Virus record (IMG/VR): IMGVR_UViG_3300014781_000001
Direction: 5' to 3' (one strand)
Origin: a virus
DNA length: 64,000 nt
How positions within the stretch are numbered: the stretch's first letter is position 1; each line of letters begins with the position of its first letter. Of this stretch, positions 3,023 to 16,072 are shown piece by piece. The notes below the pieces were generated by a model. That model searched no databases. It was not told the DNA's origin and saw only the letters and a list, made by a program, of their open reading frames with translations. The position numbers and the translations under genes were made by a program.

Positions 3023-3130
3023 GTATTTTAATCCTTTTTATATTTTAATGTTTGCCATATTATGGGTTAGTACTTAACTTTGCGTTGAGAGAGTTTTTAG
3101 GATAATTATTGGTTAAAAATTTAGCTGTTA

Positions 3131-3165
3131 TATGCAGGCGTCTGTGAAGGCTCCTGCATATTTTT
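3131..3165 (+). terminator. conserved-loop hairpin (family member H1) plus T-run, upstream of the tRNA cluster
   Basis: Stem tatgcagg/cctgcata, loop CGTCTGTGAAGGCT, followed by TTTTT. Confidence 0.5.
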
Positions 3166-3167
3166 AA

Positions 3168-3240
3168 GGTCCTGTGGCTTAGTGGTGAAAGCAAGATGCT
3201 CATAACATCGAGATCGTGGGTTCAAATCCCTCCGGGACCA
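3168..3240 (+). tRNA. tRNA-Met(CAT): tRNA-Met/Ile2 (anticodon CAT)
   Basis: Acceptor ggtcctg/cgggacc, anticodon loop cTCATAa, T-loop GGTTCAAATCC. There is one U-U mismatch in the T-stem. Confidence 0.6.
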
Positions 3241-3241
3241 C

Positions 3242-3312
3242 TGTCCAATGGTGTAGTGGTAGCACAACAGATTTTGGTTCTGTTAGCGGAGGTTCGAATC
3301 CTCCTTGGATAA
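3242..3312 (+). tRNA. tRNA-Gln(TTG): tRNA-Gln (anticodon TTG)
   Basis: Folded by hand as a full cloverleaf. Acceptor tgtccaa/ttggata with a G-U pair, D-stem gtgt/gcac, anticodon stem acaga/tctgt, loop ttTTGgt, T-arm ggagg-ttcgaat-cctcc. Confidence 0.85.
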
Positions 3313-3382
3313 CGGTACATATTTTGTGTAAAGTGTTAATTATCTAAGTGTTTGTGGTGTGTGAACATAGCAAACATTAAAT

Positions 3383-3454
3383 GGCCCATTAGTTTAACGG
3401 ATAAAACCCTTGAGTCCTAATCAAAAGTTGCCTGTTCGATTCAGGCATGGGCTA
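3383..3454 (+). tRNA. tRNA-Arg(CCT): tRNA-Arg (anticodon CCT)
   Basis: Acceptor ggcccat/atgggct, D-stem gttt/aaac, anticodon loop gtCCTaa, T-arm gcctg-ttcgatt-caggc. There is one C-A mismatch at the base of the anticodon stem. Confidence 0.7.
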
Positions 3455-3457
3455 CAT

Positions 3458-3529
3458 GGCTTGTTGGATGAGTGGTTTAGTCAGGGATCTGCAAAATCTC
3501 GTAGGGCGGTTCGATTCCGCCACAAGCCT
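3458..3529 (+). tRNA. tRNA-Cys(GCA): tRNA-Cys (anticodon GCA)
   Basis: Acceptor ggcttgt/acaagcc (perfect), anticodon stem gggat/atctc, loop ctGCAaa, T-arm ggcgg-ttcgatt-ccgcc. Confidence 0.8.
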
Positions 3530-3546
3530 CTAAAAAAAGTAAGACA

Positions 3547-4239
3547 ATGAACTACCCAGAGCAACAAATGCTTAAGATCCTTAATAGGGATCTGTTAAGT
3601 AATCCGATGTATGTTATTAACAATCTTCATATATATGATTGGGAATCTGACTTCCTGGCCATAACAAGATCATTGTACGCTTATGAAGTAGAGGTCAAGA
3701 TGTCTAAACAAGATTTCTTTAACGACTTCAAAAAGGATAAAAAACATAAGGTTCTTAAAGACGGCATTATTAAGGTAGGTGGTGTCATAAGCTATCCTCC
3801 AAACTATTTCTATTACGCCTGTCCTCCTAATATGATTGACGTAAGTGAAGTTCCGTCTTATGCCGGGCTTATTTATGTCGATGTTAGTAAAAATAGGAAG
3901 AACGTCGTTAAGGTCGCACCTTTAATTCATAGACAGAAGTTTGATGTAGTGGGTAGGAAACTGGTGGATAAGTTTTACTACAATATGCTTACTTGGAAGA
4001 AAAGAGCTATTTCAAACGTGTATGCTGACCCGGCCAAGGAAAGAGAGAAAGGCGTGCGTGCCGGAGCTGAGGCTGTGAGGAAGTCGGCCTGGGATGCGTT
4101 CAGGGCGCAGTGCCCGCACATTGCTTTCCCCTATGGAAAAGAATTTCCGATGTGTGATGATCACGAACAAGATCATCCCATGAGAGACTGCATACTTCAG
4201 TGTGAAAAAGGTAGAATATTTAAAAACAAATTAAAATGA
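3547..4239 (+). CDS. hypothetical protein with a possible PD-(D/E)xK-like D..ESD..EVEVK pattern and a C-terminal Cys/His cluster
   Basis: YDWESDFLAITRSLYAYEVEVK, and the C-terminal CPH..C..H..H..C..C cluster. Confidence 0.45.
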   Translation: MNYPEQQMLKILNRDLLSNPMYVINNLHIYDWESDFLAITRSLYAYEVEVKMSKQDFFNDFKKDKKHKVLKDGIIKVGGVISYPPNYFYYACPPNMIDVSEVPSYAGLIYVDVSKNRKNVVKVAPLIHRQKFDVVGRKLVDKFYYNMLTWKKRAISNVYADPAKEREKGVRAGAEAVRKSAWDAFRAQCPHIAFPYGKEFPMCDDHEQDHPMRDCILQCEKGRIFKNKLK

Positions 4240-4505
4240 GCACCCCACGTGAATTAAGCAGGATAGCTAATAAAATAGCCAGTAAGATGACTGATGATGG
4301 ATGGGTCAGCCCCGGTAGAAAGAATCTTGTCTCTGATAAGAAGGTCATGGAATTAATAGATTTGATCTTTAATGAAATATGGAGGGAATTAGATGACGGG
4401 AAAAGAGTCCATATCATAAAACAGATGATTTTTAAAAAGATTTTTGTCAGTAGGCAAAAAGATAAATACTACATACAATGCATAGAAAAAAGGGACGCCA
4501 AATAG
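4236..4505 (+). CDS. hypothetical protein
   Basis: ORF track. The ATGA start overlaps the upstream stop. Confidence 0.45.
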   Translation: MSTPRELSRIANKIASKMTDDGWVSPGRKNLVSDKKVMELIDLIFNEIWRELDDGKRVHIIKQMIFKKIFVSRQKDKYYIQCIEKRDAK

Positions 4506-4520
4506 ACGTCCCTTTTCTTT
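4493..4520. terminator. bidirectional intrinsic terminator between convergent genes
   Basis: gggacg-ccaaataga-cgtccc hairpin followed by a TTTTCTTTTT run. Confidence 0.6.
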
Positions 4521-4535
4521 TTCTGTAAGTAATTG

Positions 4536-5192
4536 TTATTTCATTACTTTCCTTACCAACTTAGAAACAGCTTGAGTGATAGTCCACCTGATGTTTGCAT
4601 TAACGTTGATAGTCTGAGGAGTACCGTTTGCATCCAAGTTAATTACCTCCTTGTCTATTTCCAAGAACGGATCACCTGCTGTCTGGGTAATAACCGTATT
4701 AGCTGTCTGACCACCGGCGGCCGTCACCTTAAGAGTATTTACCAGATCATTTACATCAGCGTTTTCTGGAATACTGGAGAATACGATACTGAAAGCAAAT
4801 CCCCCTGTTGCACCAGGGTCGTCGGCGATAACAGCGCCGTTGTTAGTAGCCTTGCCTGCTGCCTGATAGGAGGCTGGTATTTCCAGCGTCAGAGGATGAG
4901 ACTCGTCTGGAGTTAAGGAGAACGTTAATTTAGTTGAGTTACTTGTACCGTTGATTGTTACAGTACCACCTTCTTTCCCTACAGATGCAGTAGGATCTAT
5001 TTTTACGAACTCAGCTACCGGAGATTGGTTGATGGTAGCAACTTTCTTAACACCACCGGATTCGGCACCAAAGTTTACTTGTTGCGTGCGCTGTACACGA
5101 CCTTGGTATTTTTCACCTGATACGGTAACTGCCTGATCACCATCACCTGATCCCGGATTGAAGGTTACAAAACCTATTTTCAATTCTGCCAT
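4536..5192 (-). CDS. hypothetical T/G/S/N-rich beta-rich protein (possible Ig-like structural or decoration protein)
   Basis: A lone minus-strand gene with an AT-rich promoter-like region upstream at 5193-5377. Its composition is typical of Ig-like surface domains. Confidence 0.5.
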   Translation of the reverse strand: MAELKIGFVTFNPGSGDGDQAVTVSGEKYQGRVQRTQQVNFGAESGGVKKVATINQSPVAEFVKIDPTASVGKEGGTVTINGTSNSTKLTFSLTPDESHPLTLEIPASYQAAGKATNNGAVIADDPGATGGFAFSIVFSSIPENADVNDLVNTLKVTAAGGQTANTVITQTAGDPFLEIDKEVINLDANGTPQTINVNANIRWTITQAVSKLVRKVMK

Positions 5193-5377
5193 GACATTTA
5201 TTTTTAATTGATTAAGATACCGACAAATATATGATTATTTTTATTCTCTTACGTCATTGATTTATTTTTATTAAATACGTAGTGCTATGGTTTTTTTTAT
5301 CATATTTTAATCCTGTTTATTTCTTCGCTGATTATTTATTATGTATGTTTGCAACATCAATATAAAATATTATAACC

Positions 5378-5788
5378 ATGAAAGTAGATTTTTTTAACAG
5401 TAAGGATTTTTTAGGATCTAAAACTAAAGAAAGCAAGATCCGGAAGTTGTCAATCAGCAAAAGTAAGATAATGACTATCTCTGTAGATAATTTGAATTGG
5501 ATGGGGGTAACGGATGCGGTTGTTATCGGCTTAGAAGAAGGGAAGATATTTGAAGGAGTTGAAAATACGGTCTTTTATCTGGCTGCTTCTGATGTTGAAG
5601 ACGAGAGATCGTTTAAGGTAAATAACCTTGGTGTAAAATACAAGAGAGTTTACTTAAAAGACCTGCTCGATTATCTTGGATGGGATATAGGAGAAAATTC
5701 TTATGCTGTGTATGATATTATAAAAGAAGACAGTAATCTATTCCGTCTTCAGCTTAGGGTAATAAAAAAGAGTAGGAGTGAAAAATGA
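5378..5788 (+). CDS. hypothetical protein
   Basis: ORF track. Confidence 0.45.
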   Translation: MKVDFFNSKDFLGSKTKESKIRKLSISKSKIMTISVDNLNWMGVTDAVVIGLEEGKIFEGVENTVFYLAASDVEDERSFKVNNLGVKYKRVYLKDLLDYLGWDIGENSYAVYDIIKEDSNLFRLQLRVIKKSRSEK

Positions 5789-6663
5789 TGAACGATTTGG
5801 ATATTAAAAACAAAAGAATACTGCTATTCGATTTTGACGGGACGCTTATAGAAACCGCTTCTGGGAATACGTTCGCTACAGACTTGACAGATATGAGGAT
5901 TAAGATGGATGTGGTGAATAAGGCTCTTGACCTCATGCAGGAGAACGGTGTTAAGGTATTTGCTATCGTAAGCAATCAAGGAGGAGTAGAAGCTGGGTTT
6001 GTTTCTGGAGCTGATATTGAAGCTAAGATAGAATACGTACTGAGGTCCGTACATGATCTGGCGGTAAAGAGAGGCATAAGAGGCGTCCTATATGAAAAAA
6101 GGTTGTGTTATTCAAATGACGAACAAAATCCGATGAGGAAGCCTAACACTGGCATGATTGATGATATTCTTATGAAGTGTAAAGACACTGTAATGCGTGG
6201 TATGAACTTTAGTCAACTTAAGGGATGTTCGTTGATGGTCGGGGACGCCAGTGGTCTGCCAGGGCAGTTCTCTGATTCGGATAAGGTATGCGCTGAGAAG
6301 GCCGGTATTGAATATATGGATGTTATCACGTTTGTTGGTAAAGACCTTGATTTGAATTATGTGTTGTCCAAAGAACATACAAGTGAAGGAATAGTTATTC
6401 TCAACAACGATTATATATATATCCTTGAAAATCCTTATGGAGTTGATCTTAATATAAAAATTGAATTACAGGATATTTATAGTGCGGAGTTTGATACTCC
6501 TCCTGTCTGTAAACCTCCTTTATTTACTTTGAAGGTCCGTATTAAAAAAGATCAGGATTATAGAGGATACAGCGATATTATAAGAATAGATAAAGGAGAC
6601 AATAATATTACATTCACAAGTTTATATTATGAAGGTAAAGAAAACGGCGATAGTTTATCATAA
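5785..6663 (+). CDS. HAD-superfamily phosphatase (polynucleotide 3'-phosphatase-like) with a C-terminal extra domain
   Basis: HAD motif I LLFDFDGTLIET, motif II VSNQGG, distal GDASG..D. Confidence 0.6.
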   Translation: MMNDLDIKNKRILLFDFDGTLIETASGNTFATDLTDMRIKMDVVNKALDLMQENGVKVFAIVSNQGGVEAGFVSGADIEAKIEYVLRSVHDLAVKRGIRGVLYEKRLCYSNDEQNPMRKPNTGMIDDILMKCKDTVMRGMNFSQLKGCSLMVGDASGLPGQFSDSDKVCAEKAGIEYMDVITFVGKDLDLNYVLSKEHTSEGIVILNNDYIYILENPYGVDLNIKIELQDIYSAEFDTPPVCKPPLFTLKVRIKKDQDYRGYSDIIRIDKGDNNITFTSLYYEGKENGDSLS

Positions 6664-7585
6664 ATCGGATTTAGATGGCGTTGTATCGGCAGCCATCGCA
6701 ACCATGTACGAAAACAGTAAAGACAGGGATGTTGTTTATATCCCGTATTCGTATGAAGATGATGTTAAGAAAGTTACCAGCAAAGTGCGTGATTTAGATG
6801 CTGTTTATGTTCTTGACGTGTCTTTCGGAGCCGATTCTAAAACAGTTTTCAAAAAGTGGCTTGATGAAGGAAAGAGCCTGATGTGGATAGATCACCATAA
6901 GGGAATTATCGAAGATAGTAAGACATGGGGGTTCGTAGTTCCAGGGTTGAGGAGAGTCGGCGTCGGTGCGTGCGCTCTGGCTTCGGACCTGCTTATGGGG
7001 AAGGTGCCGGCGATCGTCCGGTGCCTGTCAGACTACGATGTGTGGAATAAAGAATCTGAATTAGGTTGGGATACGGTAGTAGCTATCCAGTATGCCTTGA
7101 GATCAAAAATAAGACTCAATGTATTAATAGCATTGTCGTATTTGTATGACCATTTTAAAGAAGATATGAAGGACAATGAAATTGATCTTATTTTTTATGA
7201 TCTCGCTAAAGAAGGACGTGCTATAATTAATTACATGGCTGGTAAAAACGAACAAGAGGTAAGTGCGTATTCGTTTGAAGCTTACGTCGATGAGGTGAAG
7301 GTAGTGGCGATGAATACCACCGAATTTAGTTCTAAGGTATTTGATTCTCTTACACCGGACTGGTTAGACGGTAGGAAAATTAAAGCCCTGATGCCATTTT
7401 GTATCATTCCAGGCGGTAAAGTCCGGTTCTCTCTTTATGAATGCGTGGAAGACAGCGCGGATTGCTGTGAGGTAAGTAAAAGATTCGGTGGTGGAGGACA
7501 TGCTGGTGCTGCTGGGTTTGTGCTTGATGTCACGGATATCAGATTCAGGGAATTTATAGAAAAACATAAACTTATATCACAATGA
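6629..7585 (+). CDS. DHH-DHHA1 family phosphoesterase (NrnA/RecJ-like nanoRNase)
   Basis: HKSDLDGVVSA (motif I), WIDHHKG (DHH motif), C-terminal GGGGHAGAAGF (DHHA1 GGGH). Confidence 0.7.
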   Translation: MKVKKTAIVYHKSDLDGVVSAAIATMYENSKDRDVVYIPYSYEDDVKKVTSKVRDLDAVYVLDVSFGADSKTVFKKWLDEGKSLMWIDHHKGIIEDSKTWGFVVPGLRRVGVGACALASDLLMGKVPAIVRCLSDYDVWNKESELGWDTVVAIQYALRSKIRLNVLIALSYLYDHFKEDMKDNEIDLIFYDLAKEGRAIINYMAGKNEQEVSAYSFEAYVDEVKVVAMNTTEFSSKVFDSLTPDWLDGRKIKALMPFCIIPGGKVRFSLYECVEDSADCCEVSKRFGGGGHAGAAGFVLDVTDIRFREFIEKHKLISQ

Positions 7586-7974
7586 AGTGCGAACTGTATC
7601 AATTTTCCCCACAAGTCTATCCCTTTAATCTGTGGATATATGTAGGTAAAGATGTTTCTGGTATAGTAGAGTGTTTCAATAACGATTTTAGTTACATAGA
7701 TAATAGTATGGGCGCAACCATAACCGTACCGTATGGAGGATGCAAATTAGATCCTTGCACAGGATTCTTGATATGGTTTATTAATAAGAACGTTATTGAT
7801 TTTAACACAGTCTCACACGAAGCAGCCCATGTGTCTCTCAATGCATTTGATTTCTTAGGAGAAAAAGTAATGAAATCAGAACCTTTCTGCTACCTCGTTG
7901 GATGGGTGGCAGGAAAGTGTGAAGAAGTAAAGAAAGGAAAAGTACGAGATAAATTAATATGGGAAAGTAAGTGA
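7582..7974 (+). CDS. hypothetical protein with an HEAAH (HExxH-like) motif, possibly a small metallopeptidase
   Basis: TVSHEAAHVSLNAFDF. Confidence 0.35.
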   Translation: MKCELYQFSPQVYPFNLWIYVGKDVSGIVECFNNDFSYIDNSMGATITVPYGGCKLDPCTGFLIWFINKNVIDFNTVSHEAAHVSLNAFDFLGEKVMKSEPFCYLVGWVAGKCEEVKKGKVRDKLIWESK

Positions 7975-8015
7975 GGTAATTTTAAAATATTGTTGGTTGT
8001 AGTAAGCAGGGAGGT

Positions 8016-8052
8016 CCTAAATAGGCTTCCCTGCTTTTTTTTATGTGATGAG
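8016..8052 (+). terminator. intrinsic terminator
   Basis: gcaggga-ggtcctaaataggc-tccctgc followed by TTTTTTTT. Confidence 0.65.
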
Positions 8053-8175
8053 AAAGAAAGGTGAAAATGTTTATGTTACGGTAGAGAGATTAAAAATGTT
8101 TATGTGATAGGAGAGAAGCTAAAAAAGGTTTATGTGATGAGGGATATGAAAAAATGTTTATGTGATGGGAGAGAG
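8040..8175. repeat. iteron-like array: five copies of TTTATGTGATG at about 29-30-bp spacing
   Basis: Copies start near 8040, 8069, 8099, 8129 and 8158. The array is followed by two GAAACGCGTTTT palindromes and C-rich tracts. Confidence 0.6.
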
Positions 8176-8282
8176 GGGGTACCTATCACGAACCTCCCGC
8201 CCCCGAAACGCGTTTTCTTCCCCACACCCCCTTCGCTGGAAAACCGGAAACGCGTTTTTATCTCAAATATATAAACTCTCTG

Positions 8283-8430
8283 ATTATCAACCACTTATTT
8301 AAATTATTGATAATCAATGTGTTATTATAACATATTGATTATAAGCCACTTAAATAAGCATATATCCTACATATTAATGTACGCGTATAACACTGCTCTC
8401 GTTCGTTTTATAACTTGCTGATAATCAGAT
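8283..8430. promoter_or_regulatory. AT-rich region with four TGATAATCA-like palindromic boxes and a 10-bp inverted repeat
   Basis: tgattatcaa(8283)/ttgataatca(8307), attgattataa(8333), ctgataatcag(8418). Confidence 0.45.
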
Positions 8431-8591
8431 AATATAATCGAAATTAATACAAATTAACAAAAAAAAGATAGCATATATATTTGTAGTAATGGTAAATGTA
8501 GTATATTTGCAATGTGATTAAGAGAGATCACGAGTTAACACAGTGAACCTATATAGTGTACCCGTTGGGCTAACTATATCTGTATCTGTAA

Positions 8592-9647: not shown

Positions 9648-9680
9648 AGTACGGGCCTGTACACAAGAACTACGTACTAA
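9648..9680 (+). promoter_or_regulatory. hairpin family member H-A
   Basis: tagtacg-GGCCTGTACACAAGAACTA-cgtacta. Confidence 0.35.
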
Positions 9681-9727
9681 TTACGGGCTGTTGGTTGTAG
9701 CATAAAATTCGTATAGAATAGGAATGC

Positions 9728-9949
9728 GTGTTCGGTTCGATTCCGGAGCAACCTCTAAATTATAAACAATATAATAACATGGGAAAGAAAGCAATGATCA
9801 ACGCTTTAACTGAAGCGTTCAATAAATCTAAAAACAGTTGCGTAAAAATAACATTGCGTAACTATATCGAGACGGTTGAAGCACTAAGCGAAAGTGAGTA
9901 CAAAGAGGCGGAAGGTTTCTATATTGAAGCACTTAACCGCTGGGGTTAA
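9728..9949 (+). CDS. hypothetical small protein (probable start at the ATG at 9779)
   Basis: ORF track. The 5' part of the called ORF overlaps the conserved T-arm-like box. Confidence 0.4.
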   Translation: MFGSIPEQPLNYKQYNNMGKKAMINALTEAFNKSKNSCVKITLRNYIETVEALSESEYKEAEGFYIEALNRWG

Positions 9950-9971
9950 TCATAATTAAAGCATAAAGAAA

Positions 9972-10178: not shown

Positions 10179-10531
10179 ACAGGAGTAGGGTTGTTCCGAA
10201 CTTCGGAGCGGCCCTATTTTTGTATCCTACTCTTTATATTCATGGGTAGGATATTCTGAGAGTGAACGGCGGACGTGGACAAAATTGGTCTAAAACGAAA
10301 CAAAAATAAGGCCATTCGGATATAATGCCGGTATTTTGTCTATATCATGTCGTTAAAATTGGTCTAAAACGAAACTTGAGGCGGTTTTCTGACCCAAAAT
10401 AGGGTGTCGGATGCCGCCTTTTTCGTCTCTATGGATTGAAAATTAGGCTTATTGTATTTTTCTCAAAAATGAGGTATGCTTGATTATTAATTAGTTAGGT
10501 TTTATAATACCCGTATTTTCGGACATACTTA

Positions 10532-10717: not shown

Positions 10718-11580
10718 GGCGTGGGCTGAAGATTTCTATTCTCTCTATGGAATGATATTATTTCTAAACACTCTATATCCCATTCCATAGTATAGCTCAG
10801 TAGCGCTCTCCGTATGCCGGTAGTGAGGCTGAGAGCGCAGGTTCTATGCTGTAAGCCGGAGGATTAGCCGGGGTTGGAGAGGGGGAGAGGGAGGGCACTC
10901 TCTTCCAACAAAATTCAACAGATCAGCGTTTTAAAACAGTGTTCTGTAGATCATTTCCACAAAATTCAATATGATAAGGGTTTAAAACAGCATTATATAG
11001 GTTCCTTCCAACAGATTAAGGGTTGAGGACTGCATTATGTGAGTATTTTTTTCAATCGGAATGTATAACAATTAAAATATGGATGGTATGAACGTATATG
11101 ATTTTGCACCCGATTTAGATTTGAGTAAAGAAGTAGAAGGTTCTATTTTTGGGGTGAAAGGAATAGAAGGCAGTGATGGTATAGTATGTGCTAAGGTAGT
11201 TAGCTGTGTAGACGTTAAGGATTACAGTTGTGATAGGTGTATTTTTTTATGATTGTTATAAGGATAAATGTTTATTATCGCGTAGTGATAGTTGTATAGA
11301 TGGAGATTGGATTTGTAGGTACGAACAGGCTGCCATAGAGGGGGAGTAGGCGGCGCCTTGGGCTAAGGCCTGCGGTTGTCGGGCAGGACGTAGGTCAAAG
11401 CAGAGCCGGAACAGTTTGTTGTGGAACTAAAAAAAATAAAAAGGAGGAGATAGCGATATGAAAAAGGCATTTAAGATATTTTCTATTATGTTTGTCATAG
11501 AAATAGTGCTGATAGCTATTTTAGATGCTATGGCGTAAGTGAGAAAAATTTCTTCATTAATTTTCTTATGCTTTAGACAG

Positions 11581-11610
11581 AGTGCTCCCGTCTGCGAAGA
11601 TCGGAGCACT
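11581..11610 (+). promoter_or_regulatory. hairpin family member H-B
   Basis: agtgctcc-CGTCTGCGAAGAT-cggagcact. Confidence 0.5.
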
Positions 11611-11640
11611 TGCTTTATGGGATTCATGGTGCGGTAGGTC

Positions 11641-11668
11641 GGTTCGATTCCGGCGATCTCACACAACA
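11641..11668 (+). promoter_or_regulatory. tRNA-T-arm-like conserved box B (GGTTCGATTCCGG..ATCTCACACAACA)
   Basis: Near-identical to the boxes at 12495-12521 and 9735-9753. It lies 24 nt upstream of the ATG at 11692. Confidence 0.5.
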
Positions 11669-11691
11669 TTAAAAACAAAGGAGGAAAGAAA

Positions 11692-12039
11692 ATGAAAGAT
11701 GGTATTACATTACATCCAGAACACGGATTGAATCCGTCTATAGAAGTTTGCATGATATGTGGCGAAGAGATGGGGATTGCTTTATTAGGGAATAACATCA
11801 AAGGGCAGGCGCCGCATCATATATGCACGGGAGAAATATGTGACAATTGCAAAAAGATAATAGATGACGGAGGTTGTTTTATTATCGAAGTCGAGGATGG
11901 ATCAGATCAAAAGAATCCGTATCGTACAGGGAGATATTGCGCGATAAAGAAAGAAGCAGCAAAGAAAATACTTGGACAGGAGCATAGTATTGTGTACATG
12001 GAAAAGTCTGCGTACAGTCAAATAATACCACAAAAATAA
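11692..12039 (+). CDS. hypothetical Cys-rich protein
   Basis: A strong SD-like AAAGGAGGAAAG precedes the ATG. Contains CMICGEE...CTGEICDNC. Confidence 0.55.
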   Translation: MKDGITLHPEHGLNPSIEVCMICGEEMGIALLGNNIKGQAPHHICTGEICDNCKKIIDDGGCFIIEVEDGSDQKNPYRTGRYCAIKKEAAKKILGQEHSIVYMEKSAYSQIIPQK

Positions 12040-12047
12040 AGAAAGAT

Positions 12048-12362
12048 ATGTTTACAAAAGAAGAGCGATTATTCATATGGAAAAAGGTATATGAGATGAT
12101 TGATAGGTTAGAGGATGGGGAATACATATGTGTTGCGTTAAGAAATGTAGTGTTTATGTATTTCAAAACACATAAAAATATCTATGAGTTTCGTTCAGAC
12201 GAAATGGTGAGAATATATTTCCCGGAATTGGAGGAGAAGATAAGTATGGCCACAGAACCAGAGGAAACAAGAACGTTTTATGGGTGGTTTGGTTGTCTTA
12301 GTCCAGAAACGAAGGAGGTAAGGCTGAATATTGTGAAAGATATTATAAAAGAATTAGAATAG
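12048..12362 (+). CDS. hypothetical protein
   Basis: ORF track. Confidence 0.5.
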   Translation: MFTKEERLFIWKKVYEMIDRLEDGEYICVALRNVVFMYFKTHKNIYEFRSDEMVRIYFPELEEKISMATEPEETRTFYGWFGCLSPETKEVRLNIVKDIIKELE

Positions 12363-12408
12363 TATTTTTGTTAATCTATTTTATTCATCAAATTAAGTTT
12401 TGGGTTTT

Positions 12409-12438
12409 GGCATGTCGGTTCGTGAGGATAGGCATGCC
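12409..12438 (+). promoter_or_regulatory. hairpin family member H-C
   Basis: ggcatg-TCGGTTCGTGAGGATAGG-catgcc. Confidence 0.45.
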
Positions 12439-12494
12439 TATTTCTGCATCATAGAGGGGATGACGCGGCGTGCCGGTGCGTATGTGCCGGTCCT

Positions 12495-12521
12495 GGTTCG
12501 ATTCTGGGCATCTCACAAACA
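12495..12521 (+). promoter_or_regulatory. tRNA-T-arm-like conserved box C
   Basis: GGTTCGATTCTGGGCATCTCACAAACA, 17 nt upstream of the ATG at 12538. Confidence 0.5.
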
Positions 12522-12537
12522 ATAAAACAAAAAAGTT

Positions 12538-12771
12538 ATGAGAATATATAAGAATGATATTATAAAGGCGTCAGCAATAAGCACCGGAGCCGACAGAGGC
12601 GTGTTGCTGTGTTCAATAACAGATTCAGGCTTTACGTCTATAGCGGGCGTAATATCGGCTGTTAAGGATAGGTTACCAAACGAAGATCACAAGAAGATGG
12701 TTTTTGAAATCTTGAATGATACGAAAAAAGAGTACGGAAGATATAATAATTGCGGAACAAAAGTATTGTAA
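12538..12771 (+). CDS. hypothetical protein
   Basis: ORF track. Confidence 0.5.
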   Translation: MRIYKNDIIKASAISTGADRGVLLCSITDSGFTSIAGVISAVKDRLPNEDHKKMVFEILNDTKKEYGRYNNCGTKVL

Positions 12772-12828
12772 TAAAGAGTAGAAAACAATATGTTTATGTA
12801 ATATTAGTTTTTTCATTTTTATTGAAAG

Positions 12829-12856
12829 GAGCGCCGGCCTGTGAAGGTATGCGCTC
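12829..12856 (+). promoter_or_regulatory. hairpin family member H2
   Basis: gagcgc-CGGCCTGTGAAGGTAT-gcgctc. Confidence 0.5.
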
Positions 12857-12890
12857 TTTGTATTTGTATAATGCATAAAACAATAATAAT

Positions 12891-13145
12891 ATGACAGAGA
12901 ATAGTATAGACGTAAATATCGTACCTGTAAAGAATGGTGCGAAACGTGTTGTGGTATCATATTACCATTATTCACGCAAGGACAAAAATCACATGAGTTC
13001 CCAAACGGATTACGTTTGGGAAACAAAGAATGAAGAAATGTTTAAATACTTTGAGGCCAGGAGGACAAAAGTATTTTATAGTCAGATTCGTGCCATGTGT
13101 AGATTCTATGGCAAGAAAAATGTACGTAAATACAAAAAGTTATGA
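12891..13145 (+). CDS. hypothetical protein
   Basis: ORF track. Confidence 0.5.
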   Translation: MTENSIDVNIVPVKNGAKRVVVSYYHYSRKDKNHMSSQTDYVWETKNEEMFKYFEARRTKVFYSQIRAMCRFYGKKNVRKYKKL

Positions 13146-13951
13146 TATTAAAAACGACAACCAACGAGTTTTGTTTTATTAACGTAAGTTTCTATGAAAC
13201 AATAGCAGATCCTCGATATTTCTTTGAACAAGATTATGAAGAGATGCCGGAATATGAGGAGGAATTAGATTTTGATTTTGATTCTTATTGTAATAAGTTT
13301 ATTCCTTTTGTACAGGAATGGGCGGATAAGGTGGGCGAACGCCTTTATGAATATGGTGTGAATAACATAAAGGTAATATCGGTAGGACATCCAAAAGAGT
13401 ACAATTATGGTACTGATTGGATGGATGTAAGGATAGAGTTTTGTGATGAATGGAGGCAAAAGATGTTATCTAACATTGGTAAGATTGTTAATGATGATAA
13501 ATGCAAGAAGTATGCGGAGGCTAATTATCGGTCGGTACCAGGATACATCTTTTTAGGGCCTGAAGATTTAAAGGAATTTGAAAAGGAAATAATAGAAAGA
13601 AAGTCGGATTCCGGATATGATGTAACAATATTATTAAATATGTATCTAACTTTGGCTTTTGTAAAAGAATTTGGATTTAAAGCCGGAGAAGCATGGAGTG
13701 AAATAACAGAATATGCTTACGGATGTTTATCGTATTCCGATTTTGCAACAACAGAGATGCTTATACCGGAAGGTTCGGAGCATTTATTCAAAGACATTTA
13801 CACGGCAAAGGCCGACGAATTATATCATCATGTCCTGGATAAATTCGGATGGGCGTGGCGTGATCCGAAATATAAGTCAGAAACAGAATTATGCGCGATG
13901 CTAAAGTGGGCAAAAGAAAAAGGCTTGACCATTGAAGAGTTAAGTATTTAA
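13142..13951 (+). CDS. hypothetical acidic protein
   Basis: ORF track. ATGA overlap with the upstream gene. Confidence 0.55.
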   Translation: MILKTTTNEFCFINVSFYETIADPRYFFEQDYEEMPEYEEELDFDFDSYCNKFIPFVQEWADKVGERLYEYGVNNIKVISVGHPKEYNYGTDWMDVRIEFCDEWRQKMLSNIGKIVNDDKCKKYAEANYRSVPGYIFLGPEDLKEFEKEIIERKSDSGYDVTILLNMYLTLAFVKEFGFKAGEAWSEITEYAYGCLSYSDFATTEMLIPEGSEHLFKDIYTAKADELYHHVLDKFGWAWRDPKYKSETELCAMLKWAKEKGLTIEELSI

Positions 13952-13964
13952 TTGTTAAACATAA

Positions 13965-13996
13965 GGCAGTAGTGGTGCGTGAGTATAGGTGCTGCC
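13965..13996 (+). promoter_or_regulatory. hairpin family member H4
   Basis: ggcagtag-TGGTGCGTGAGTATAG-gtgctgcc. Confidence 0.4.
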
Positions 13997-14263
13997 GTTA
14001 AAATATTTTATAAGATGAAAAAAGAAGAGATTCAAACTATTTTATACACAATCAAAGAAGGAGACAGTATTAAAATCAAAGTACAAGACAAAAGTGAAGA
14101 GATAAGACTGCGGGATCATGTAAGAAGAGTACAGAAATACGGATACAGGTTTTGTTTGTCTCATTTACATGATGGAATTTTCTATCTGGAGAAGTTGAAA
14201 GAAGGGGATAAGGATAAATACTATAGAGTAATAAACAGAGGAAATGGAAAGACCGGAGTATAA
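13979..14263 (+). CDS. hypothetical protein
   Basis: ORF track. Confidence 0.45.
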   Translation: MSIGAAVKIFYKMKKEEIQTILYTIKEGDSIKIKVQDKSEEIRLRDHVRRVQKYGYRFCLSHLHDGIFYLEKLKEGDKDKYYRVINRGNGKTGV

Positions 14264-14537
14264 TAAGCTACGCAAAATGGCTAAGACTACTCCAGGTCTG
14301 ATAGTGGACGAGGTGCAAAACATGATGCGTGTATCGCTATACGATAATGGGGAACTTAAGAAGGTGGTAGTAGTAATGAAATGCGATTCTTTTTTACAGT
14401 CAAAAAGTAACATAGAAAAGATAATGTTATTATCATCTTCTATAGAAGATAGAAAAAACAAGGAAAAAAATAAAACAAAATCAGAAAATGAACAGAATAA
14501 CAAAAATAAGAGAAGAAATAGGAGGAAAACAGGTTGA
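14244..14537 (+). CDS. hypothetical protein with a K/N/R-rich C-terminus
   Basis: ORF track. Confidence 0.45.
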   Translation: MERPEYNKLRKMAKTTPGLIVDEVQNMMRVSLYDNGELKKVVVVMKCDSFLQSKSNIEKIMLLSSSIEDRKNKEKNKTKSENEQNNKNKRRNRRKTG

Positions 14538-14871
14538 TTTGACCTTTTACGGGCGCTTTTGCAGCCTTATCGAAGGTGATAGAAAGATAATACTAAGGGC
14601 GATAAAAAACGGTCGTAAAAAAGGCGTAATCGGAGCTATTCAGCCTGGGAGACATGATAGAATTTGGACCACATGGTCTATTGCTTTTGATGATCTGAAG
14701 GTGGGGAATACGGTAGAGTTCAGTACATCTGGAAAATACAATCCAGGTTTTCATTCTACAGAAAAGTATGTAGGATGTGTAGAATGGATAAAAGGATCGG
14801 AATGTGCGATAAAAACCGGCAATGGAATGGCGGTAGTATTAATTAAACACATAGAAAGGGTAGTAAAATGA
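14488..14871 (+). CDS. hypothetical protein
   Basis: ORF track. Confidence 0.5.
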   Translation: MNRITKIREEIGGKQVDLTFYGRFCSLIEGDRKIILRAIKNGRKKGVIGAIQPGRHDRIWTTWSIAFDDLKVGNTVEFSTSGKYNPGFHSTEKYVGCVEWIKGSECAIKTGNGMAVVLIKHIERVVK

Positions 14872-15152
14872 TGGATTTAAGGATGTTTATAGACCTATTT
14901 CAGGAGATTGAGGTAGAAAACTTGTTTAAAGCGTTAGATTTATGTATGGAATATGTAAGATTAGATTTACATGTGTTTAATGTAGGAGCTCATGTAACGT
15001 GTTCATACAGCAATGATCTTGAATCTCTTTCACAGGCAGAAGGTTGTAATGTGAATATGATAATAGAGGTACCCTACTTATTCGAAGCATTCATGGAATA
15101 TGCTTCACCGGAAATGAAGTTGTATTATGAAAAACTAACAGAGATAGTATAA
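14868..15152 (+). CDS. hypothetical protein
   Basis: ORF track. ATGA overlap. Confidence 0.5.
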   Translation: MMDLRMFIDLFQEIEVENLFKALDLCMEYVRLDLHVFNVGAHVTCSYSNDLESLSQAEGCNVNMIIEVPYLFEAFMEYASPEMKLYYEKLTEIV

Positions 15153-15153
15153 T

Positions 15154-15627
15154 ATGAAAGAAGAAGTAGAACGGATAAAGAAGTTGGTAGGCATAGATCA
15201 TAACAGATGGGAGCAACCTTGTACATGTGATAAATGTAAAAACATGTGTAAAGTTCCTTGTATTGGTACGCCAAAAGACATAGAGGCTATCATAGATGCC
15301 GGATACGCTGACAGGTTAAAAGAAACAATGTGGATGGTAGGGTATCTTGCAGTGAAAGAAAAACCAATAGCGATGATCCAGCCAACAGAGAAAGACGGGT
15401 GGTGCGCATTCCGCCAGCCGGGCGGTCTCTGCGAGCTGCATGACCTCGGACTAAAGCCGACTGAAGGAGTTCTGGCTTCTTGTAAGGTGGTTGAAGAAGA
15501 CGATATTCCGACATACGAAACATCCGTACTTAGAGCAGTAGCTCACGAGTGGGTTAAGGTGGAGAACTTTGGAAATGTAATGAAGGTCGTTTTTAAATTT
15601 TTGCATGAAAATGAACGTAGAAAATAA
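15154..15627 (+). CDS. hypothetical Cys-rich (zinc-binding-like) protein
   Basis: CTCDKCKNMCKVPC cluster. Confidence 0.5.
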   Translation: MKEEVERIKKLVGIDHNRWEQPCTCDKCKNMCKVPCIGTPKDIEAIIDAGYADRLKETMWMVGYLAVKEKPIAMIQPTEKDGWCAFRQPGGLCELHDLGLKPTEGVLASCKVVEEDDIPTYETSVLRAVAHEWVKVENFGNVMKVVFKFLHENERRK

Positions 15628-16015
15628 ATTAAATAAAGTGGTTAAGATCCTAAAAGAAAAAGGATTCGTAGTATATAGAAAGGGCGGGAAGGAGCCAGGT
15701 GTATTTTATGCCAAAGAAGGTGACAGCCGGATAGGATTCGTTTATCCAAACAACGGATATATATACGACAGGATAAAAATGTGGTCTTTTTCAAGGGTGT
15801 ATAAACCACATAAGAAAACCGGATCTTCGTGTTTAATGTGTGTCAGCGACGAATTTACTATAGAAAATGCGATTAAGAGCATAGAAGATAGACTGTGGGT
15901 GAATTACATAAAAGACGGTAACAGAAAACGACCAGAAGAATATAAAAATATAAGAGAATTTGTTGGTAGCTTCACTAAATTCTACAACTCTGTAGAATTA
16001 GTTGAGGTTAAGTAG
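15605..16015 (+). CDS. hypothetical protein
   Basis: ORF track. Confidence 0.5.
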   Translation: MKMNVENKLNKVVKILKEKGFVVYRKGGKEPGVFYAKEGDSRIGFVYPNNGYIYDRIKMWSFSRVYKPHKKTGSSCLMCVSDEFTIENAIKSIEDRLWVNYIKDGNRKRPEEYKNIREFVGSFTKFYNSVELVEVK

Positions 16016-16035
16016 TTTTCCATGTAAGTTAGTTA

Positions 16036-16072
16036 CCGGCACTGGTCTGCGAAGATAGGTGCCGTTTTTTTT
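16036..16072 (+). terminator. hairpin family member H3 acting as an intrinsic terminator
   Basis: ccggcac-TGGTCTGCGAAGATAG-gtgccg followed by TTTTTTTT. Confidence 0.65.

What the first reader, a model, noticed from the sequence alone, without database searches (positions are those of the whole stretch)
3131..16072. Family of at least seven intergenic hairpins with a conserved 12-16 nt loop (GYCTGYGAAGRT) and co-varying stems
The members are listed below.

- 3131-3160: stem tatgcagg, loop CGTCTGTGAAGGCT.
- 9648-9680: loop GGCCTGTACACAAGAACTA.
- 11581-11610: stem agtgctcc, loop CGTCTGCGAAGAT.
- 12409-12438: stem ggcatg, loop TCGGTTCGTGAGGATAGG.
- 12829-12856: stem gagcgc, loop CGGCCTGTGAAGGTAT.
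- 13965-13996: loop TGGTGCGTGAGTATAG.
- 16036-16064: stem ccggcac, loop TGGTCTGCGAAGATAG.

Two members share an identical 12-mer, GTCTGCGAAGAT. The stem sequences are all different but always complementary, so the structure is conserved rather than the stem sequence. That points to a functional RNA or DNA hairpin. Some members are followed by T-runs and act as terminators (3131, 16036). Others are not. A conserved loop is not needed for termination, so a protein or RNase recognition site is plausible. Candidates are a processing, antitermination or regulatory motif of the early region. A related GTGCGAAG core also occurs at 19428 and 24968.
Basis: seen in the sequence. Interest (0 to 1): 0.65.

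Follow-up and report, generated by a model that had tools for sequence, protein, structure and literature searches.

The report
Conserved GUGA-capped hairpin of Bacteroidales phages
The window holds nine copies of a precisely built RNA hairpin that many gut Bacteroidales phages share, found either as a terminator-like signal or just in front of tRNA genes, and it matches no catalogued RNA family.

Summary
The "12-16 nt loop" is a 4-bp inner stem capped by a GNRA tetraloop (GUGA or GCGA). One unpaired position, mostly G·A, separates it from a variable 7-10 bp outer stem.

Six of the seven listed members fit. 9648, 19428 and 24968 do not. Three members are new: 3347(+), 54395(-) and 61049(-). 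All nine lie on the coding strand.

About 145 related phage contigs keep the loop GNRA, never close the mismatch, and change the stems compensatorily.

The same design, often with the identical core CTGGTCTGTGAAGATAGG, occurs in crAss001, B40-8, a microvirus, prophages of Prevotella, Bacteroides and Parabacteroides, and more than 120 gut viral contigs with 38 different outer stems. The G·U closing pair, the next U-A pair and the 3' A of the mismatch are nearly invariant.

Two contexts recur:
- about 37% of copies are followed by a T-run, like a terminator;
- about 25-34% lie 1-15 nt upstream of a tRNA or tRNA-like gene.

There is no Rfam match, and no searched paper holds the core sequence.

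Best reading: an RNA boundary and 3'-end module, probably read by a conserved host factor. The mechanism is inferred, not shown.

The parts
3130..3161 (+). Family member h3130: ATATGCAGG c GTCT GTGA AGGC t CCTGCATAT, followed by TTTTT. It ends 6 nt before tRNA-Met (3168).
   Evidence: 31.8 bits. tRNA. Identical in relatives.
3347..3378 (+). Family member h3347, new: AGTGTTTGT g GTGT GTGA ACAT a GCAAACATT. It lies between tRNA-Gln and tRNA-Arg and ends 4 nt before tRNA-Arg (3383). No T-run.
   Evidence: (36.3 bits).
11580..11611 (+). Family member h11580: GAGTGCTCC c GTCT GCGA AGAT c GGAGCACTT. It lies 7 nt upstream of tRNA-like element A.
   Evidence: 35.2 bits. Compensatory changes in the population at columns 4/31 and 5/30.
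12409..12438 (+). Family member h12409: GGCATGTC g GTTC GTGA GGAT a GGCATGCC. It starts 47 nt after the stop of ORF 12048-12362 and ends 17 nt before tRNA-like element B.
   Evidence: (36.2 bits). It aligns to the GUGA terminator of the Bacteroides sRNA family BTnc231, far below threshold.
12826..12859 (+). Family member h12826: AAGGAGCGC cg GCCT GTGA AGGT at GCGCTCTTT (G·A plus an extra C·U). It lies between ORF 12538-12771 and ORF 12891-13145.
   Evidence: (38.7 bits).
13965..13996 (+). Family member h13965: GGCAGTA g T g GTGC GTGA GTAT a G g TGCTGCC. It starts 14 nt after the stop of ORF 13142-13951. The next ATG is 18 nt downstream (14015). There is no T-run, so transcription must read through.
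   Evidence: (29.4 bits).
16037..16064 (+). Family member h16037: CGGCACT g GTCT GCGA AGAT a GGTGCCG, followed by T8. It lies between ORF 15605-16015 and ORF 16094-16345, 29 nt before the ATG.
   Evidence: (38.7 bits). Population variants carry the core CTGGTCTGTGAAGATAGG, identical to crAss001.
54395..54428 (-). Family member h54395, new: ACCGGTTCTC a GTCA GGGA TGAT a GGGAACCGGT, followed by TTCTTTT. It lies downstream of the 2140-aa ORF. A -7-like box TATCTTGC (54370-54363) follows.
   Evidence: (32.5 bits). The ortholog in csAssE-Sib has a GAGA loop.
61049..61076 (-). Family member h61049, new: AGCCATC g GACT GAGA AGTT a GATGGCT, followed by CTATTTTTT. A Bacteroides-type -7 box TACCTTTG (61018-61011) and the ATG of the 2140-aa ORF (60987) follow.
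   Evidence: (35.7 bits).
3168..3530 (+). tRNA cluster (Met, Gln, Arg, Cys). Two family members sit immediately 5' of its tRNAs.
3051..3082 (+). Bacteroides-type promoter match TTTG-N20-TAACTTTG, about 47 nt upstream of h3130 and the tRNA cluster.
   Evidence: with the sequence. This is a pattern match only.
11618..11665 (+). tRNA-like element A: acceptor-like stem (U)GGGAUU/GAUCUC(A) and T-arm GUCGG-UUCGAUU-CCGGC (11638-11654). ARAGORN does not call it.
   Evidence: Conserved in 145 related loci, with T-stem changes that keep pairing.
12456..12518 (+). tRNA-like element B: GGGGAUG/CAUCUC acceptor-like stem with a G·U at the third layer, and T-arm CCUGG-UUCGAUU-CUGGG (12492-12508).
   Evidence: Weak Rfam alignments to the tRNA-like parts of the Deinococcus Y RNA (16.1 bits) and of tmRNA (6.5 bits).
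9692..9757 (+). tRNA-like element C: UGGUUGU/GCAACC(U) and T-arm UUCGG-UUCGAUU-CCGGA (9731-9747).
   Evidence: compensatory C-G to U-A change in the T-stem.

Best explanation
The nine copies are RNA hairpins read on the coding strand. They belong to one family that is shared widely among phages of Bacteroidales.

**Design**
- A variable, co-varying outer stem of 6-10 bp.
- One unpaired position whose 3' base is almost always A (mostly G·A).
- A 4-bp inner stem that starts with a G·U wobble and then a U-A pair.
- A GNRA tetraloop, mostly GUGA.

**Proposed role: an RNA boundary and 3'-end module**
- Where a U-run follows, it terminates transcription by the host polymerase.
- Where a tRNA, a tRNA-like element or the next cistron follows with no room for a promoter, transcription reads through. 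The hairpin then ends up at the 3' end of the upstream RNA once an endonuclease cuts just downstream. At a tRNA 5' end that endonuclease would be RNase P. There the hairpin would block 3' exonucleases.
- The near-invariant G·U, U-A, 3' A and GUGA are not the most stable choices. The same core recurs in phages that share no obvious proteins, including a small microvirus (about 6.2 kb; four annotated genes). I therefore infer that a conserved host factor reads the top of the hairpin.

**Shown versus inferred**
- Shown: the structure, the strand, the conservation, the distribution and the contexts.
- Inferred: termination, read-through, RNase P-dependent end formation, protection, and the host factor.
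For: **Structure and chance**
- establish the hairpins and their excess over chance.

**Strand**
- All nine lie on the coding strand.
- The sense RNA folds at a mean of -16.1 kcal/mol against -10.3 for the antisense. G·U pairs become C·A in the antisense.

**Selection within the species**
- Gapless orthologs were found in up to 157 related loci per site; the five well-sampled sites have 96-157, while the two tRNA-cluster sites (h3130, h3347) have only 3-4.
- Only 1 of about 690 loops is non-GNRA.
- The N and R positions of the loop vary freely.
- The mismatch is never closed.
- Stem changes are compensatory.

**Across phages**
- crAss001 1877-1910 scores 30.9 bits and lies 6 nt before tRNA-Glu.
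- B40-8 has two copies, both followed by T-runs.
- A microvirus has one copy with a T6 run, 30 nt after a stop codon.
- In cr85_1 a copy lies 1-2 nt before tRNA-Arg.
- Hits in Bacteroidales genomes lie next to SSB, NinB-like, NinG-like and KilA-N genes.
- More than 120 viral contigs carry the core. Of 80 read, 76 are in hairpin context with 38 distinct outer stems.

**Covariation in 60 distinct sequences**
- 95.8% of cells are paired, against 66% in shuffles and about 40% when the 3' partners are slid.
- The closing pair is G·U in 59 of 60 and never G-C.
- The two inner pairs nearest the loop co-vary.

**Contexts of 65 distinct copies**
- 24 have a T-run.
- 16 have a called tRNA starting within 15 nt.
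- 22 have a tRNA or a T-loop motif at tRNA distance.

**In the window**
- The late-strand copies are followed by T-runs and then Bacteroides-type -7 boxes.
- 13965, 12826 and 16037 leave only 18-31 nt before the next ATG, so read-through is required.

**Distinct from ordinary terminators**
- Ordinary T-run hairpins in the same genomes have perfect stems and non-GNRA loops, so this is a separate subclass.
Against: - There are no transcript-end data. Termination, read-through and RNase P-generated ends are all inferred.
- Only 4 of the 9 window copies have a good T-run.
- h3347 lies between two tRNAs, where capping an upstream mRNA makes little sense.
- In one group of viral contigs a -7-like box lies about 6 nt upstream of the hairpin. 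That would put the hairpin at the 5' end of a short leader rather than at the end of an upstream mRNA.
- A pure stability or termination role does not itself explain the invariant G·U and A. The host-factor step is added to explain them and has no direct support.
- Much of the cross-phage sample was seeded with one exact core, which inflates the apparent sequence conservation of the inner stem. The 24 unseeded distinct copies still keep G·U, U-A, A and GUGA.
- The host-chromosome sample is small (about 75 kb, and rich in prophages).
Confidence: 0.45

Rival explanations
1. It is a factor-dependent regulatory site. The hairpin top would be the binding site of an antitermination or attenuation factor, in the way lambda N binds the GNRA-like boxB hairpin, or of a factor that stabilises the hairpin. 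Read-through of the many intra-operon copies would then be switched during infection.
For: - The sequence-level features (G·U, A, GUGA) are not optimal for stability.
- Copies with T-runs sit inside operons with no room for a new promoter: 16037 with T8 lies 29 nt before the next ATG.
- Promoter, short leader, hairpin, then tRNAs at 3051-3168 looks like a leader attenuator.
- Prophage copies lie in SSB / NinB-like / NinG-like early regions.
- The closing pattern CU-G.RA-AG resembles lambda and P22 boxB. This point rests on my own knowledge.
Against: - No conserved linear boxA-like motif lies beside the hairpin.
- There are nine or more copies per genome, including downstream of late genes.
- It occurs in a small microvirus (about 6.2 kb) with four annotated genes, and in phages with no obvious shared regulator, so any factor would have to come from the host.
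- Many copies lack any T-run, so there is nothing to antiterminate.
Confidence: 0.2
2. It is primarily a pre-tRNA leader element. A hairpin placed 1-11 nt 5' of phage tRNA and tRNA-like genes would tune RNase P cleavage or tRNA expression, or release a defined small leader RNA. The terminator-like copies would be a secondary use.
For: - 16 of 65 distinct copies have a called tRNA starting within 15 nt, and 22 of 65 have a tRNA or a T-loop at tRNA distance.
- Window: 6 nt before tRNA-Met, 4 nt before tRNA-Arg, and 7 and 17 nt before tRNA-like elements A and B.
- crAss001: 6 nt before tRNA-Glu, conserved 34 of 34 nt in about 30 isolates.
- cr85_1 and Bacteroides locus L188, 4 nt before tRNA-Pro.
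Against: - Most tRNAs in the same arrays have no such hairpin.
- About two thirds of copies have no tRNA nearby.
- Five of the nine window copies precede protein genes or promoters.
- The microvirus and B40-8 copies have no annotated tRNA nearby.
Confidence: 0.12
3. It is an ordinary stable hairpin with no specific recognition. The shared core would reflect common descent and horizontal spread of a small cassette among gut phages, not function.
For: - The exact 18-mer is shared by very different phages, which transfer could produce.
- GUGA-capped hairpins also occur in Bacteroides sRNA families BTnc231, BTnc049 and GibS, so GUGA may simply be a common local habit.
Against: - Outer stems differ completely (38 versions) while the core is kept. 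That is the opposite of what recent copying predicts.
- Unseeded copies vary the two loop-proximal pairs by covariation but keep G·U, U-A, A and GUGA.
- Population variants never break the loop class or close the mismatch.
Confidence: 0.1
4. It acts at the DNA level. A single-strand DNA hairpin would serve as a priming or single-strand initiation site, a nuclease or recombination site (attC-like), or a hairpin promoter of the N4 type.
For: - Hairpin orientation flips together with GC skew and gene orientation near 53 kb.
- One copy lies on the packaged strand of a single-stranded DNA microvirus.
- The early-region pattern of a small ORF followed by a hairpin superficially recalls cassette arrays.
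Against: - With DNA parameters the inner stem is lost in 12409 and 13965 and is shortened to three pairs in 3347 and 16037. The folds are weak, -2.9 to -9.1 kcal/mol.
- The conserved G·U wobble and GNRA loop are RNA hallmarks.
- The template strand would carry C·A mismatches.
- The fixed position before tRNA 5' ends and the T-runs fit transcripts.
- No conserved flanking recombination boxes are present.
Confidence: 0.05
5. It is a docking site for the phage Ro60/Rsr protein, that is, a Y-RNA-like module.
For: - csAssE-Sib and crAss001 encode Ro60/TROVE proteins.
- One copy lies 59 nt after the rsr stop codon.
- The core GGUCUGCGAAGAUAG loosely resembles the vertebrate GGUCCGA and the bacterial GNCGAAG Ro-binding motifs (PMC4201824).
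- Element B weakly matches the tRNA-like part of the Deinococcus Y RNA.
Against: - The GNCGAAN0-1G motif is not actually met: the hairpins have UGCGAAG or UGUGAAG.
- Inner-stem positions co-vary.
- Hairpins are local stem-loops, not a stem closed by the 5' and 3' ends.
- The B40-8 and microvirus records annotate no Ro60/TROVE gene, and the few genes inspected beside the prophage copies are not Ro60-like.
- Eight of the nine window copies are tens of kb from rsr.
Confidence: 0.03

Closest known systems
Rho-independent (intrinsic) terminators capped by extra-stable tetraloops, such as the CUUCGG and GNRA hairpins of phage T4 intercistronic regions and E. coli terminators (my own knowledge: Tuerk et al. 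1988; d'Aubenton Carafa et al. 1990)
   Same: - An intergenic, coding-strand RNA hairpin with a stable tetraloop in a phage.
- Some copies are followed by U-runs.
- A likely role in 3'-end formation and protection.
   Different: - This family has a fixed two-tier design with a near-invariant G·U, U-A and unpaired A that termination does not require.
- More than half of the copies lack a U-run.
- The family is shared across unrelated phages of one host order.
- It is strongly linked to tRNA 5' ends.
MALAT1 / mascRNA-type 3'-end formation: a tRNA-like element is cut by RNase P and a protective structure lies just upstream (my own knowledge)
   Same: A stable structure ends a few nucleotides before the 5' end of a tRNA or tRNA-like element. 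RNase P cleavage would therefore leave the upstream RNA ending in that structure.
   Different: - MALAT1 is eukaryotic and uses a triple helix rather than a hairpin.
- Here RNase P cleavage and protection are inferred only.
- Many copies have no tRNA nearby.
Lambda / P22 boxB (nut site) hairpins bound by the N antiterminator
   Same: - A short stem closed by U-A with a GNRA-fold loop.
- A phage early-operon setting.
- Sequence-level conservation of the hairpin top.
   Different: - boxB is a 5-bp stem with a pentaloop. It is accompanied by a linear boxA and occurs twice per genome near promoters.
- Here there is a tetraloop on 4 bp plus a mismatch and a long outer stem.
- No boxA is present.
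- There are nine or more copies, including late-region ones.
REP / BIME-type intercistronic stabiliser hairpins and phiX174 mRNA-stabilising terminator hairpins (my own knowledge)
   Same: Repeated intergenic hairpins that can act as barriers to 3' exonucleases and give segmental mRNA stability. One copy is in a microvirus.
   Different: REP copies share the stem sequence and occur in both orientations. Here the stems all differ, only the top is conserved, and the orientation is always that of the coding strand.
GUGA-capped hairpins of Bacteroides sRNAs (Rfam BTnc231, BTnc049, GibS)
   Same: - The BTnc231 terminator and a BTnc049 hairpin carry GUGA loops.
- GibS has an internal hairpin GCUU-GUGAU-AAGU-A that aligns to h12826.
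   Different: These alignments score 16-20 bits against gathering scores of 80-115. The BTnc231 hairpin has a continuous stem. None of these families is defined by this motif.

Membership tests
Intrinsic (Rho-independent) terminator | A stable RNA hairpin on the transcribed strand, downstream of a gene | tested here: met
   All nine are intergenic and on the coding strand, at -12 to -19 kcal/mol.
Intrinsic (Rho-independent) terminator | A U-run directly after the stem (about 5 or more U within 8-9 nt) | tested here: inconclusive
   Met by 4 of the 9 window copies (3130, 16037, 54395, 61049). Not met by 3347 and 13965. Weak in 11580, 12409 and 12826. Met by 24 of 65 distinct copies in other phages.
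Intrinsic (Rho-independent) terminator | Transcription actually ends there | not testable with these tools
   No transcript data are available. Three copies leave 18-31 nt to the next ATG, which implies read-through.
Lambda-type nut site (boxA + boxB) | A conserved linear boxA a few nt upstream of the hairpin | tested here: not met
   Information content is about zero outside positions -7 to +10 in 80 distinct copies.
Lambda-type nut site (boxA + boxB) | A 5-bp stem with a GNRA-like pentaloop, at one or two promoter-proximal sites | tested here: not met
   The hairpin is a tetraloop on 4 bp plus a mismatch and a 7-10 bp stem. There are nine copies in 64 kb, including late-region ones. A few relatives have GUGAU pentaloops.
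RNase III processing site (T7 R1.1 type) | About two helical turns of double-stranded RNA with an internal loop at the cut site | tested here: not met
   The total is only 11-14 stacked pairs. Cleavage itself is not testable here.
REP / MITE-like repeated element | Copies share the sequence of the whole element, stems included | tested here: not met
   Outer stems are unrelated among the nine copies, and there are 38 distinct outer stems elsewhere.
Integron attC-like recombination site | A 57-141 nt imperfect hairpin with conserved R/L boxes at its base | tested here: not met
   The hairpins are 28-34 nt. The base and the flanks are not conserved; the top is.
Y RNA / Ro60-binding module | A stem formed by the 5' and 3' ends that carries GGUCCGA or GNCGAAN0-1G, encoded within about 4 kb of rsr on the same strand (PMC4201824) | tested here: not met
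   These are local hairpins. The motif reads UGCGAAG or UGUGAAG. Only one copy, in csAssE-Sib, lies next to rsr.
Any Rfam 15 family | A match at the gathering score | tested here: not met
   No hit on any hairpin at the gathering threshold, nor at E up to 5-10 apart from chance-level sRNA alignments.
N4-type hairpin promoter | A DNA hairpin with a 5-7 bp stem and a 3-nt loop on the template strand | tested here: not met
   The stable fold is on the non-template strand. The DNA folds are weak. The motif also occurs in B40-8 and a microvirus, whose records annotate no virion polymerase.

The most novel reading that the evidence does not exclude
The hairpin top (R·A, G·U, U-A and a GUGA loop) may be a dedicated recognition module for a conserved Bacteroidales RNA-binding protein or ribonuclease. 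Many unrelated gut phages (crAss-like, siphoviruses, microviruses) would have adopted it independently to control the fate of their RNAs. Placing it next to tRNA or tRNA-like elements would let RNase P release RNAs that end in this tag. That would amount to a previously undescribed, order-wide phage-host RNA signal.
Probability: 0.3. Interest if true: 0.8.

Novelty: new variant of a known kind. Interest (0 to 1): 0.62.

Why it matters
- RNA biology in Bacteroidales is poorly charted. By my own knowledge they lack Hfq and ProQ, and few RNA motifs are defined for them.
- A short, sharply defined hairpin is shared by crAss-like phages, B40-8, microviruses and prophages. That points to a common host machinery which these abundant gut viruses all use.
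- It is directly testable, because crAss001 with B. intestinalis and B40-8 with B. fragilis are cultured systems that carry the motif.
- The motif also gives a practical annotation signal for transcript boundaries and for unrecognised tRNA-like genes in gut phage genomes.
- It is a candidate part (terminator, insulator or stabiliser) for Bacteroides engineering.

Tried and rejected
- **Rfam.** Searches at the gathering threshold and at permissive E-values found no family for the hairpins. There were only chance-level alignments to Bacteroides sRNA families.
Member 9648 and the cores at 19428 and 24968 were rejected on folding and model score.
- **Simple terminator scan.** It misses the family because it does not allow the internal mismatch.
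- **Host DNA through a phage gene.** A search of bacterial genomes with the GH5-like phage protein (4536-5192, minus strand) found no relative. Host chromosomal density therefore rests on about 75 kb around seeded hits.
- **Plasmid collection.** No Bacteroides hit for the core, only chance matches.
- **Literature.** No paper holds the core sequence. Searches on GNRA, terminators, Bacteroides and crAss001 transcription gave nothing relevant. No paper on csAssE-Sib was found.
- **Flanking motif.** A boxA-like or other linear motif beside the hairpin is absent.
- **Promoter just upstream.** A Bacteroides -7 box directly upstream of the hairpin appears only in one group of viral contigs, not in general.
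- **Ro60/Y-RNA link.** Considered because relatives encode Ro60. The defining motif and topology are not met.
- **16S rRNA helix 12 mimicry.** Considered from memory only and not testable here, so dropped.
- **DNA-level hairpin roles.** Disfavoured by the strand asymmetry and the weak DNA folds.

Full report
**What the window is.**
- It is part of a roughly 150-kb gut phage. It is about 90-93% identical over the aligned parts to phage csAssE-Sib (OR575929).
- That phage has crAss-type annotations such as ring and muzzle proteins. The window's 2140-aa protein (54565-60987, minus strand) is distantly related to the crAss virion RNA polymerase family.
- Genes run on the + strand to about 53 kb and then on the - strand. 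GC skew flips at the same place.
- Bacteroides-type promoter boxes (TAnnTTTG) precede late genes and the tRNA cluster. This fits a Bacteroidales host.

**Checking the observation.**
Each true member has four parts:
  - an outer stem of 7-10 bp;
  - one unpaired position, G·A in 6 of 9, otherwise C·U, C·C or A·A (12826 and 13965 have one extra irregularity);
  - a 4-bp inner stem that opens with G·U in 8 of 9;
  - a GNRA tetraloop (GUGA x5, GCGA x2, GGGA, GAGA).
- Six of the seven listed sites fit.
- 9648-9680 folds weakly (-7.4 kcal/mol) and scores 9.6 bits against the family model. 19428 and 24968 are not hairpins.
- A structural scan and a covariance model (R1) add three members: 3347-3378 (+), 54395-54428 (-) and 61049-61076 (-).
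- With filters off, the nine members score 29-39 bits and the next hit scores 14 bits.
- Two-tier GNRA hairpins with an outer stem of at least 7 bp number 8, against 0.88 +/- 1.0 in 100 dinucleotide shuffles.
- All nine are intergenic and on the coding strand.

**RNA or DNA.**
- The sense RNA folds at a mean of -16.1 kcal/mol and the antisense at -10.3. The G·U pairs become C·A and the GNRA loops are lost in the antisense.
- With DNA parameters the inner stem is lost in two members and shortened in two more, and energies are -2.9 to -9.1 kcal/mol.
- This points to an RNA element.

**Selection within the species.**
- About 160 loci from IMG/VR contigs of the same phage species were fetched.
- Without requiring a hairpin, gapless orthologs were found at 96-157 loci for the five well-sampled sites, but at only 3-4 loci for the two tRNA-cluster sites.
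- Loops stay GNRA, with one exception in about 690.
- The N position of the loop varies freely (C, U, A). The R position changes only from G to A.
- The mismatch is never converted into a pair; G·A becomes A·A twice.
- Stem changes are compensatory. In h11580, G-C changes to A-U at columns 4/31 and U-A to C-G at columns 5/30.
- The G·U can become A-U (49 of 145 at h11580). It is G-C only in h3130.

**Rest of the genome.** In csAssE-Sib, outside the window, R1 finds:
- the two late orthologs;
- a copy antisense to its neighbouring genes;
- a copy 59 nt after the stop of a Ro60/Rsr gene, followed by T7;
- several weaker GNRA-capped terminator-like hairpins.

**Beyond this phage.**
- crAss001 has one strong copy (30.9 bits): GACTATCT G GTCT GTGA AGAT A GGATAGTC. 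It lies 6 nt before tRNA-Glu. All 34 nt are identical in about 30 Kehishuvirus isolates.
- B40-8, an unrelated Bacteroides siphovirus, has two copies (34.1 and 24.1 bits), both followed by T-runs.
- A 6.2-kb capybara-gut microvirus has one copy with T6, 30 nt after a stop codon.
- cr85_1 has one copy 1-2 nt before tRNA-Arg.
- The 18-nt core CTGGTCTG(Y)GAAGATAGG gave 21 hits among 185,579 species genomes.
  - Fourteen are in Bacteroidota.
  - About a dozen are inside hairpins (Prevotella, Bacteroides, Parabacteroides, Dysgonomonadaceae, Muribaculaceae), mostly followed by T-runs.
  - Several lie next to phage-type genes (SSB, NinB-like, NinG-like, KilA-N), so they look like prophages.
  - One looks chromosomal.
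Of 80 read, 76 are in hairpin context with 38 different outer stems.

**Unseeded copies and covariation.**
- Searching those 743 kb with R1 found 41 further copies that were not selected by the core (24 distinct).
- Their inner stems are GUCU, GUUC, GUUU, GUGU, GUAU, GUCC and GCUU. A few have GUGAU pentaloops.
- Across 60 distinct sequences:
  - 95.8% of cells pair, against 66% in shuffles and about 40% when the partners are slid;
  - the closing pair is G·U in 59 of 60, never G-C;
  - the next pair is U-A in 59 of 60;
  - the two pairs nearest the loop co-vary.
- The 3' base of the mismatch is A in 73 of 80. Nothing outside positions -7 to +10 is conserved.
- Caveat: about half of this set was chosen by the exact core. 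The outer stems, the flanks and the unseeded copies are the unbiased part.

**Not the generic terminator style.** Ordinary T-run hairpins in the window, csAssE-Sib, crAss001, B40-8 and the Bacteroidales loci have continuous stems and assorted loops. In about 75 kb of Bacteroidales DNA around the seeded hits, R1 found only one further hit above 20 bits, and it lies in a prophage. The window has nine in 64 kb. This sample is small.

**Contexts.**
- Of 65 distinct copies in other phages:
  - 24 are followed by at least 5 T in 9 nt;
  - 16 have an ARAGORN-called tRNA starting within 15 nt on the same strand;
  - 22 have a tRNA or a T-loop motif at tRNA distance;
  - 5 have both.
- In the window:
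  - h3130 ends 6 nt before tRNA-Met and h3347 ends 4 nt before tRNA-Arg.
  - h11580 and h12409 precede by 7 and 17 nt two conserved tRNA-like elements, each with an acceptor-like stem and a canonical T-arm. Neither ARAGORN nor Rfam calls them.
  - h12826, h13965 and h16037 lie between small ORFs, only 18-31 nt before the next ATG. The downstream genes therefore need read-through, even past the T8 after h16037.
  - The two minus-strand copies have T-runs followed by -7 boxes and genes. That is the classic terminator-then-promoter layout.
  - A full promoter match (3051-3082) lies 47 nt upstream of h3130. -7 boxes at 11487 and 12363 lie upstream of h11580 and h12409. These three may be short leader or sRNA-like units that end in the hairpin.

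**Most likely mechanism.**
- I commit to an RNA boundary and 3'-end module.
  - With a U-run it terminates the host polymerase. The microvirus and B40-8 records annotate no RNA polymerase of their own, so they presumably rely on the host enzyme.
  - Without a U-run it is read through. It then becomes the 3' terminal structure of the upstream RNA once a downstream endonuclease cuts, which would be RNase P at the tRNA or tRNA-like 5' end. There it would hinder 3' exonucleases.
- The logic resembles MALAT1/mascRNA and phage intercistronic stabiliser hairpins.
- These steps are inferred from position and sequence. None is shown.
- The G·U (never G-C), the U-A, the unpaired A and GUGA are not what stability alone would select. 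They are kept across phages that share no obvious proteins. I therefore add the inference that a conserved host factor reads the hairpin top.
- Points that fit poorly:
  - h3347 lies between two tRNAs;
  - one group of contigs has a -7-like box only about 6 nt upstream of the hairpin, which would make it a 5' leader hairpin.

**Rivals.**
- A factor-controlled attenuator or antiterminator target of the boxB kind. There is no boxA, there are many copies, and it is present in a microvirus.
- A pre-tRNA leader element. Two thirds of copies have no tRNA.
- Inert hairpins spread by transfer. The varied outer stems and the constrained variation contradict this.
- A DNA-level site. Strand asymmetry and weak DNA folds argue against it.
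- A Ro60 docking site. The motif and topology are not met, and no Ro60 gene is annotated in B40-8 or the microvirus.

**Comparison with what is known.**
- There is no Rfam family. No searched paper holds the core sequence.
- Weak Rfam alignments show that GUGA-capped hairpins also occur in the Bacteroides sRNA families BTnc231, BTnc049 and GibS. The GibS hairpin GCUU-GUGAU-AAGU-A has the same top. The host may therefore use related hairpins.
- I file this as a new variant of a known kind: terminator or stabiliser hairpins with stable tetraloops. It is defined by an unusually specific top and by a link to tRNA genes.

**Verdict.** The function remains inferred. Interest is 0.62.

Noticed in passing
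window 9692-9757, 11618-11665, 12456-12518 (+): Three conserved tRNA-like elements in the early region. Each has an acceptor-like stem and a canonical T-arm (UUCGAUU loop) with a short or odd middle. Neither ARAGORN nor Rfam tRNA calls them, and each lies 25-30 nt before a start codon. Elements A (11618) and B (12456) have a G·U at the third acceptor layer. Element B weakly aligns to the tRNA-like domains of tmRNA and of the Deinococcus Y RNA. They may be RNase P / CCA-enzyme substrates or processing signals.
   Followed up: partly
window 43994-44232 (+): A strong match to HEARO RNA (RF02033): 112.9 bits against a gathering score of 83. HEARO is the RNA associated with HNH-endonuclease (IscB-type) mobile elements. 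csAssE-Sib also has TnpB genes elsewhere in its genome.
   Followed up: no
window 52946-52992 (both strands): A 47-nt near-perfect palindromic hairpin (-32 to -37 kcal/mol) exactly where the + and - gene blocks converge. It is probably a bidirectional terminator and is not of the GNRA family.
   Followed up: no
window 10179-10223 (+): A very stable 45-nt hairpin (-30 kcal/mol) about 40 nt from the point that corresponds to the ends of the linear csAssE-Sib record (window about 10260). It may relate to a genome terminus or packaging site, or it may be coincidence.
   Followed up: no
window 3051-3082, 11487-11494, 12363-12370 (+): Bacteroides-type promoter boxes 40-90 nt upstream of three family hairpins. 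They suggest short leader or sRNA-like units (about 60-110 nt) that end in the hairpin. B40-8 has a similar unit, with TATATTTG about 95 nt upstream of its hairpin at 16563-16596.
   Followed up: partly
L163 12400-13100 and 13092-14726 (csAssE-Sib record 72400-74725, outside the window); L167 46870-48288 (crAss001 gp96): Both phages encode Ro60/TROVE proteins. In csAssE-Sib the gene follows tRNA-Tyr, tRNA-Lys and another tRNA-like element, each preceded by a repeated leader (A)GTGGTGATGG...TTACTTCG. These are candidate Y-RNA-like genes.
   Followed up: no
L190, L214, L224 (IMG/VR contigs), just downstream of the hairpin: The hairpin is followed by what looks like the 5' half of a tRNA-Leu/Ser-type gene (GG.G..TGGCGGAA.T.G.AGACGC...) interrupted by a long insertion. 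It may be an intron-containing tRNA. ARAGORN does not call it.
   Followed up: no
L171 5788-6063 (Muribaculaceae genome contig, minus strand): A prophage-like arrangement in this order: SSB gene, family hairpin, two uncalled tRNA-like elements (one ending ACCA), a second family hairpin, NinB-like gene. It mirrors the window's pairing of hairpin and tRNA-like element.
   Followed up: partly
window 54565-60987 (-): The C-terminal 400 aa of this 2140-aa ORF are 23-27% identical to proteins of Cellulophaga phages phi17:2 and phi4:1 and of crAss-like phages. One of those proteins is annotated as an RNA-polymerase subunit, so the ORF may be a virion RNA polymerase. Family hairpins flank it on both sides.
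   Followed up: partly
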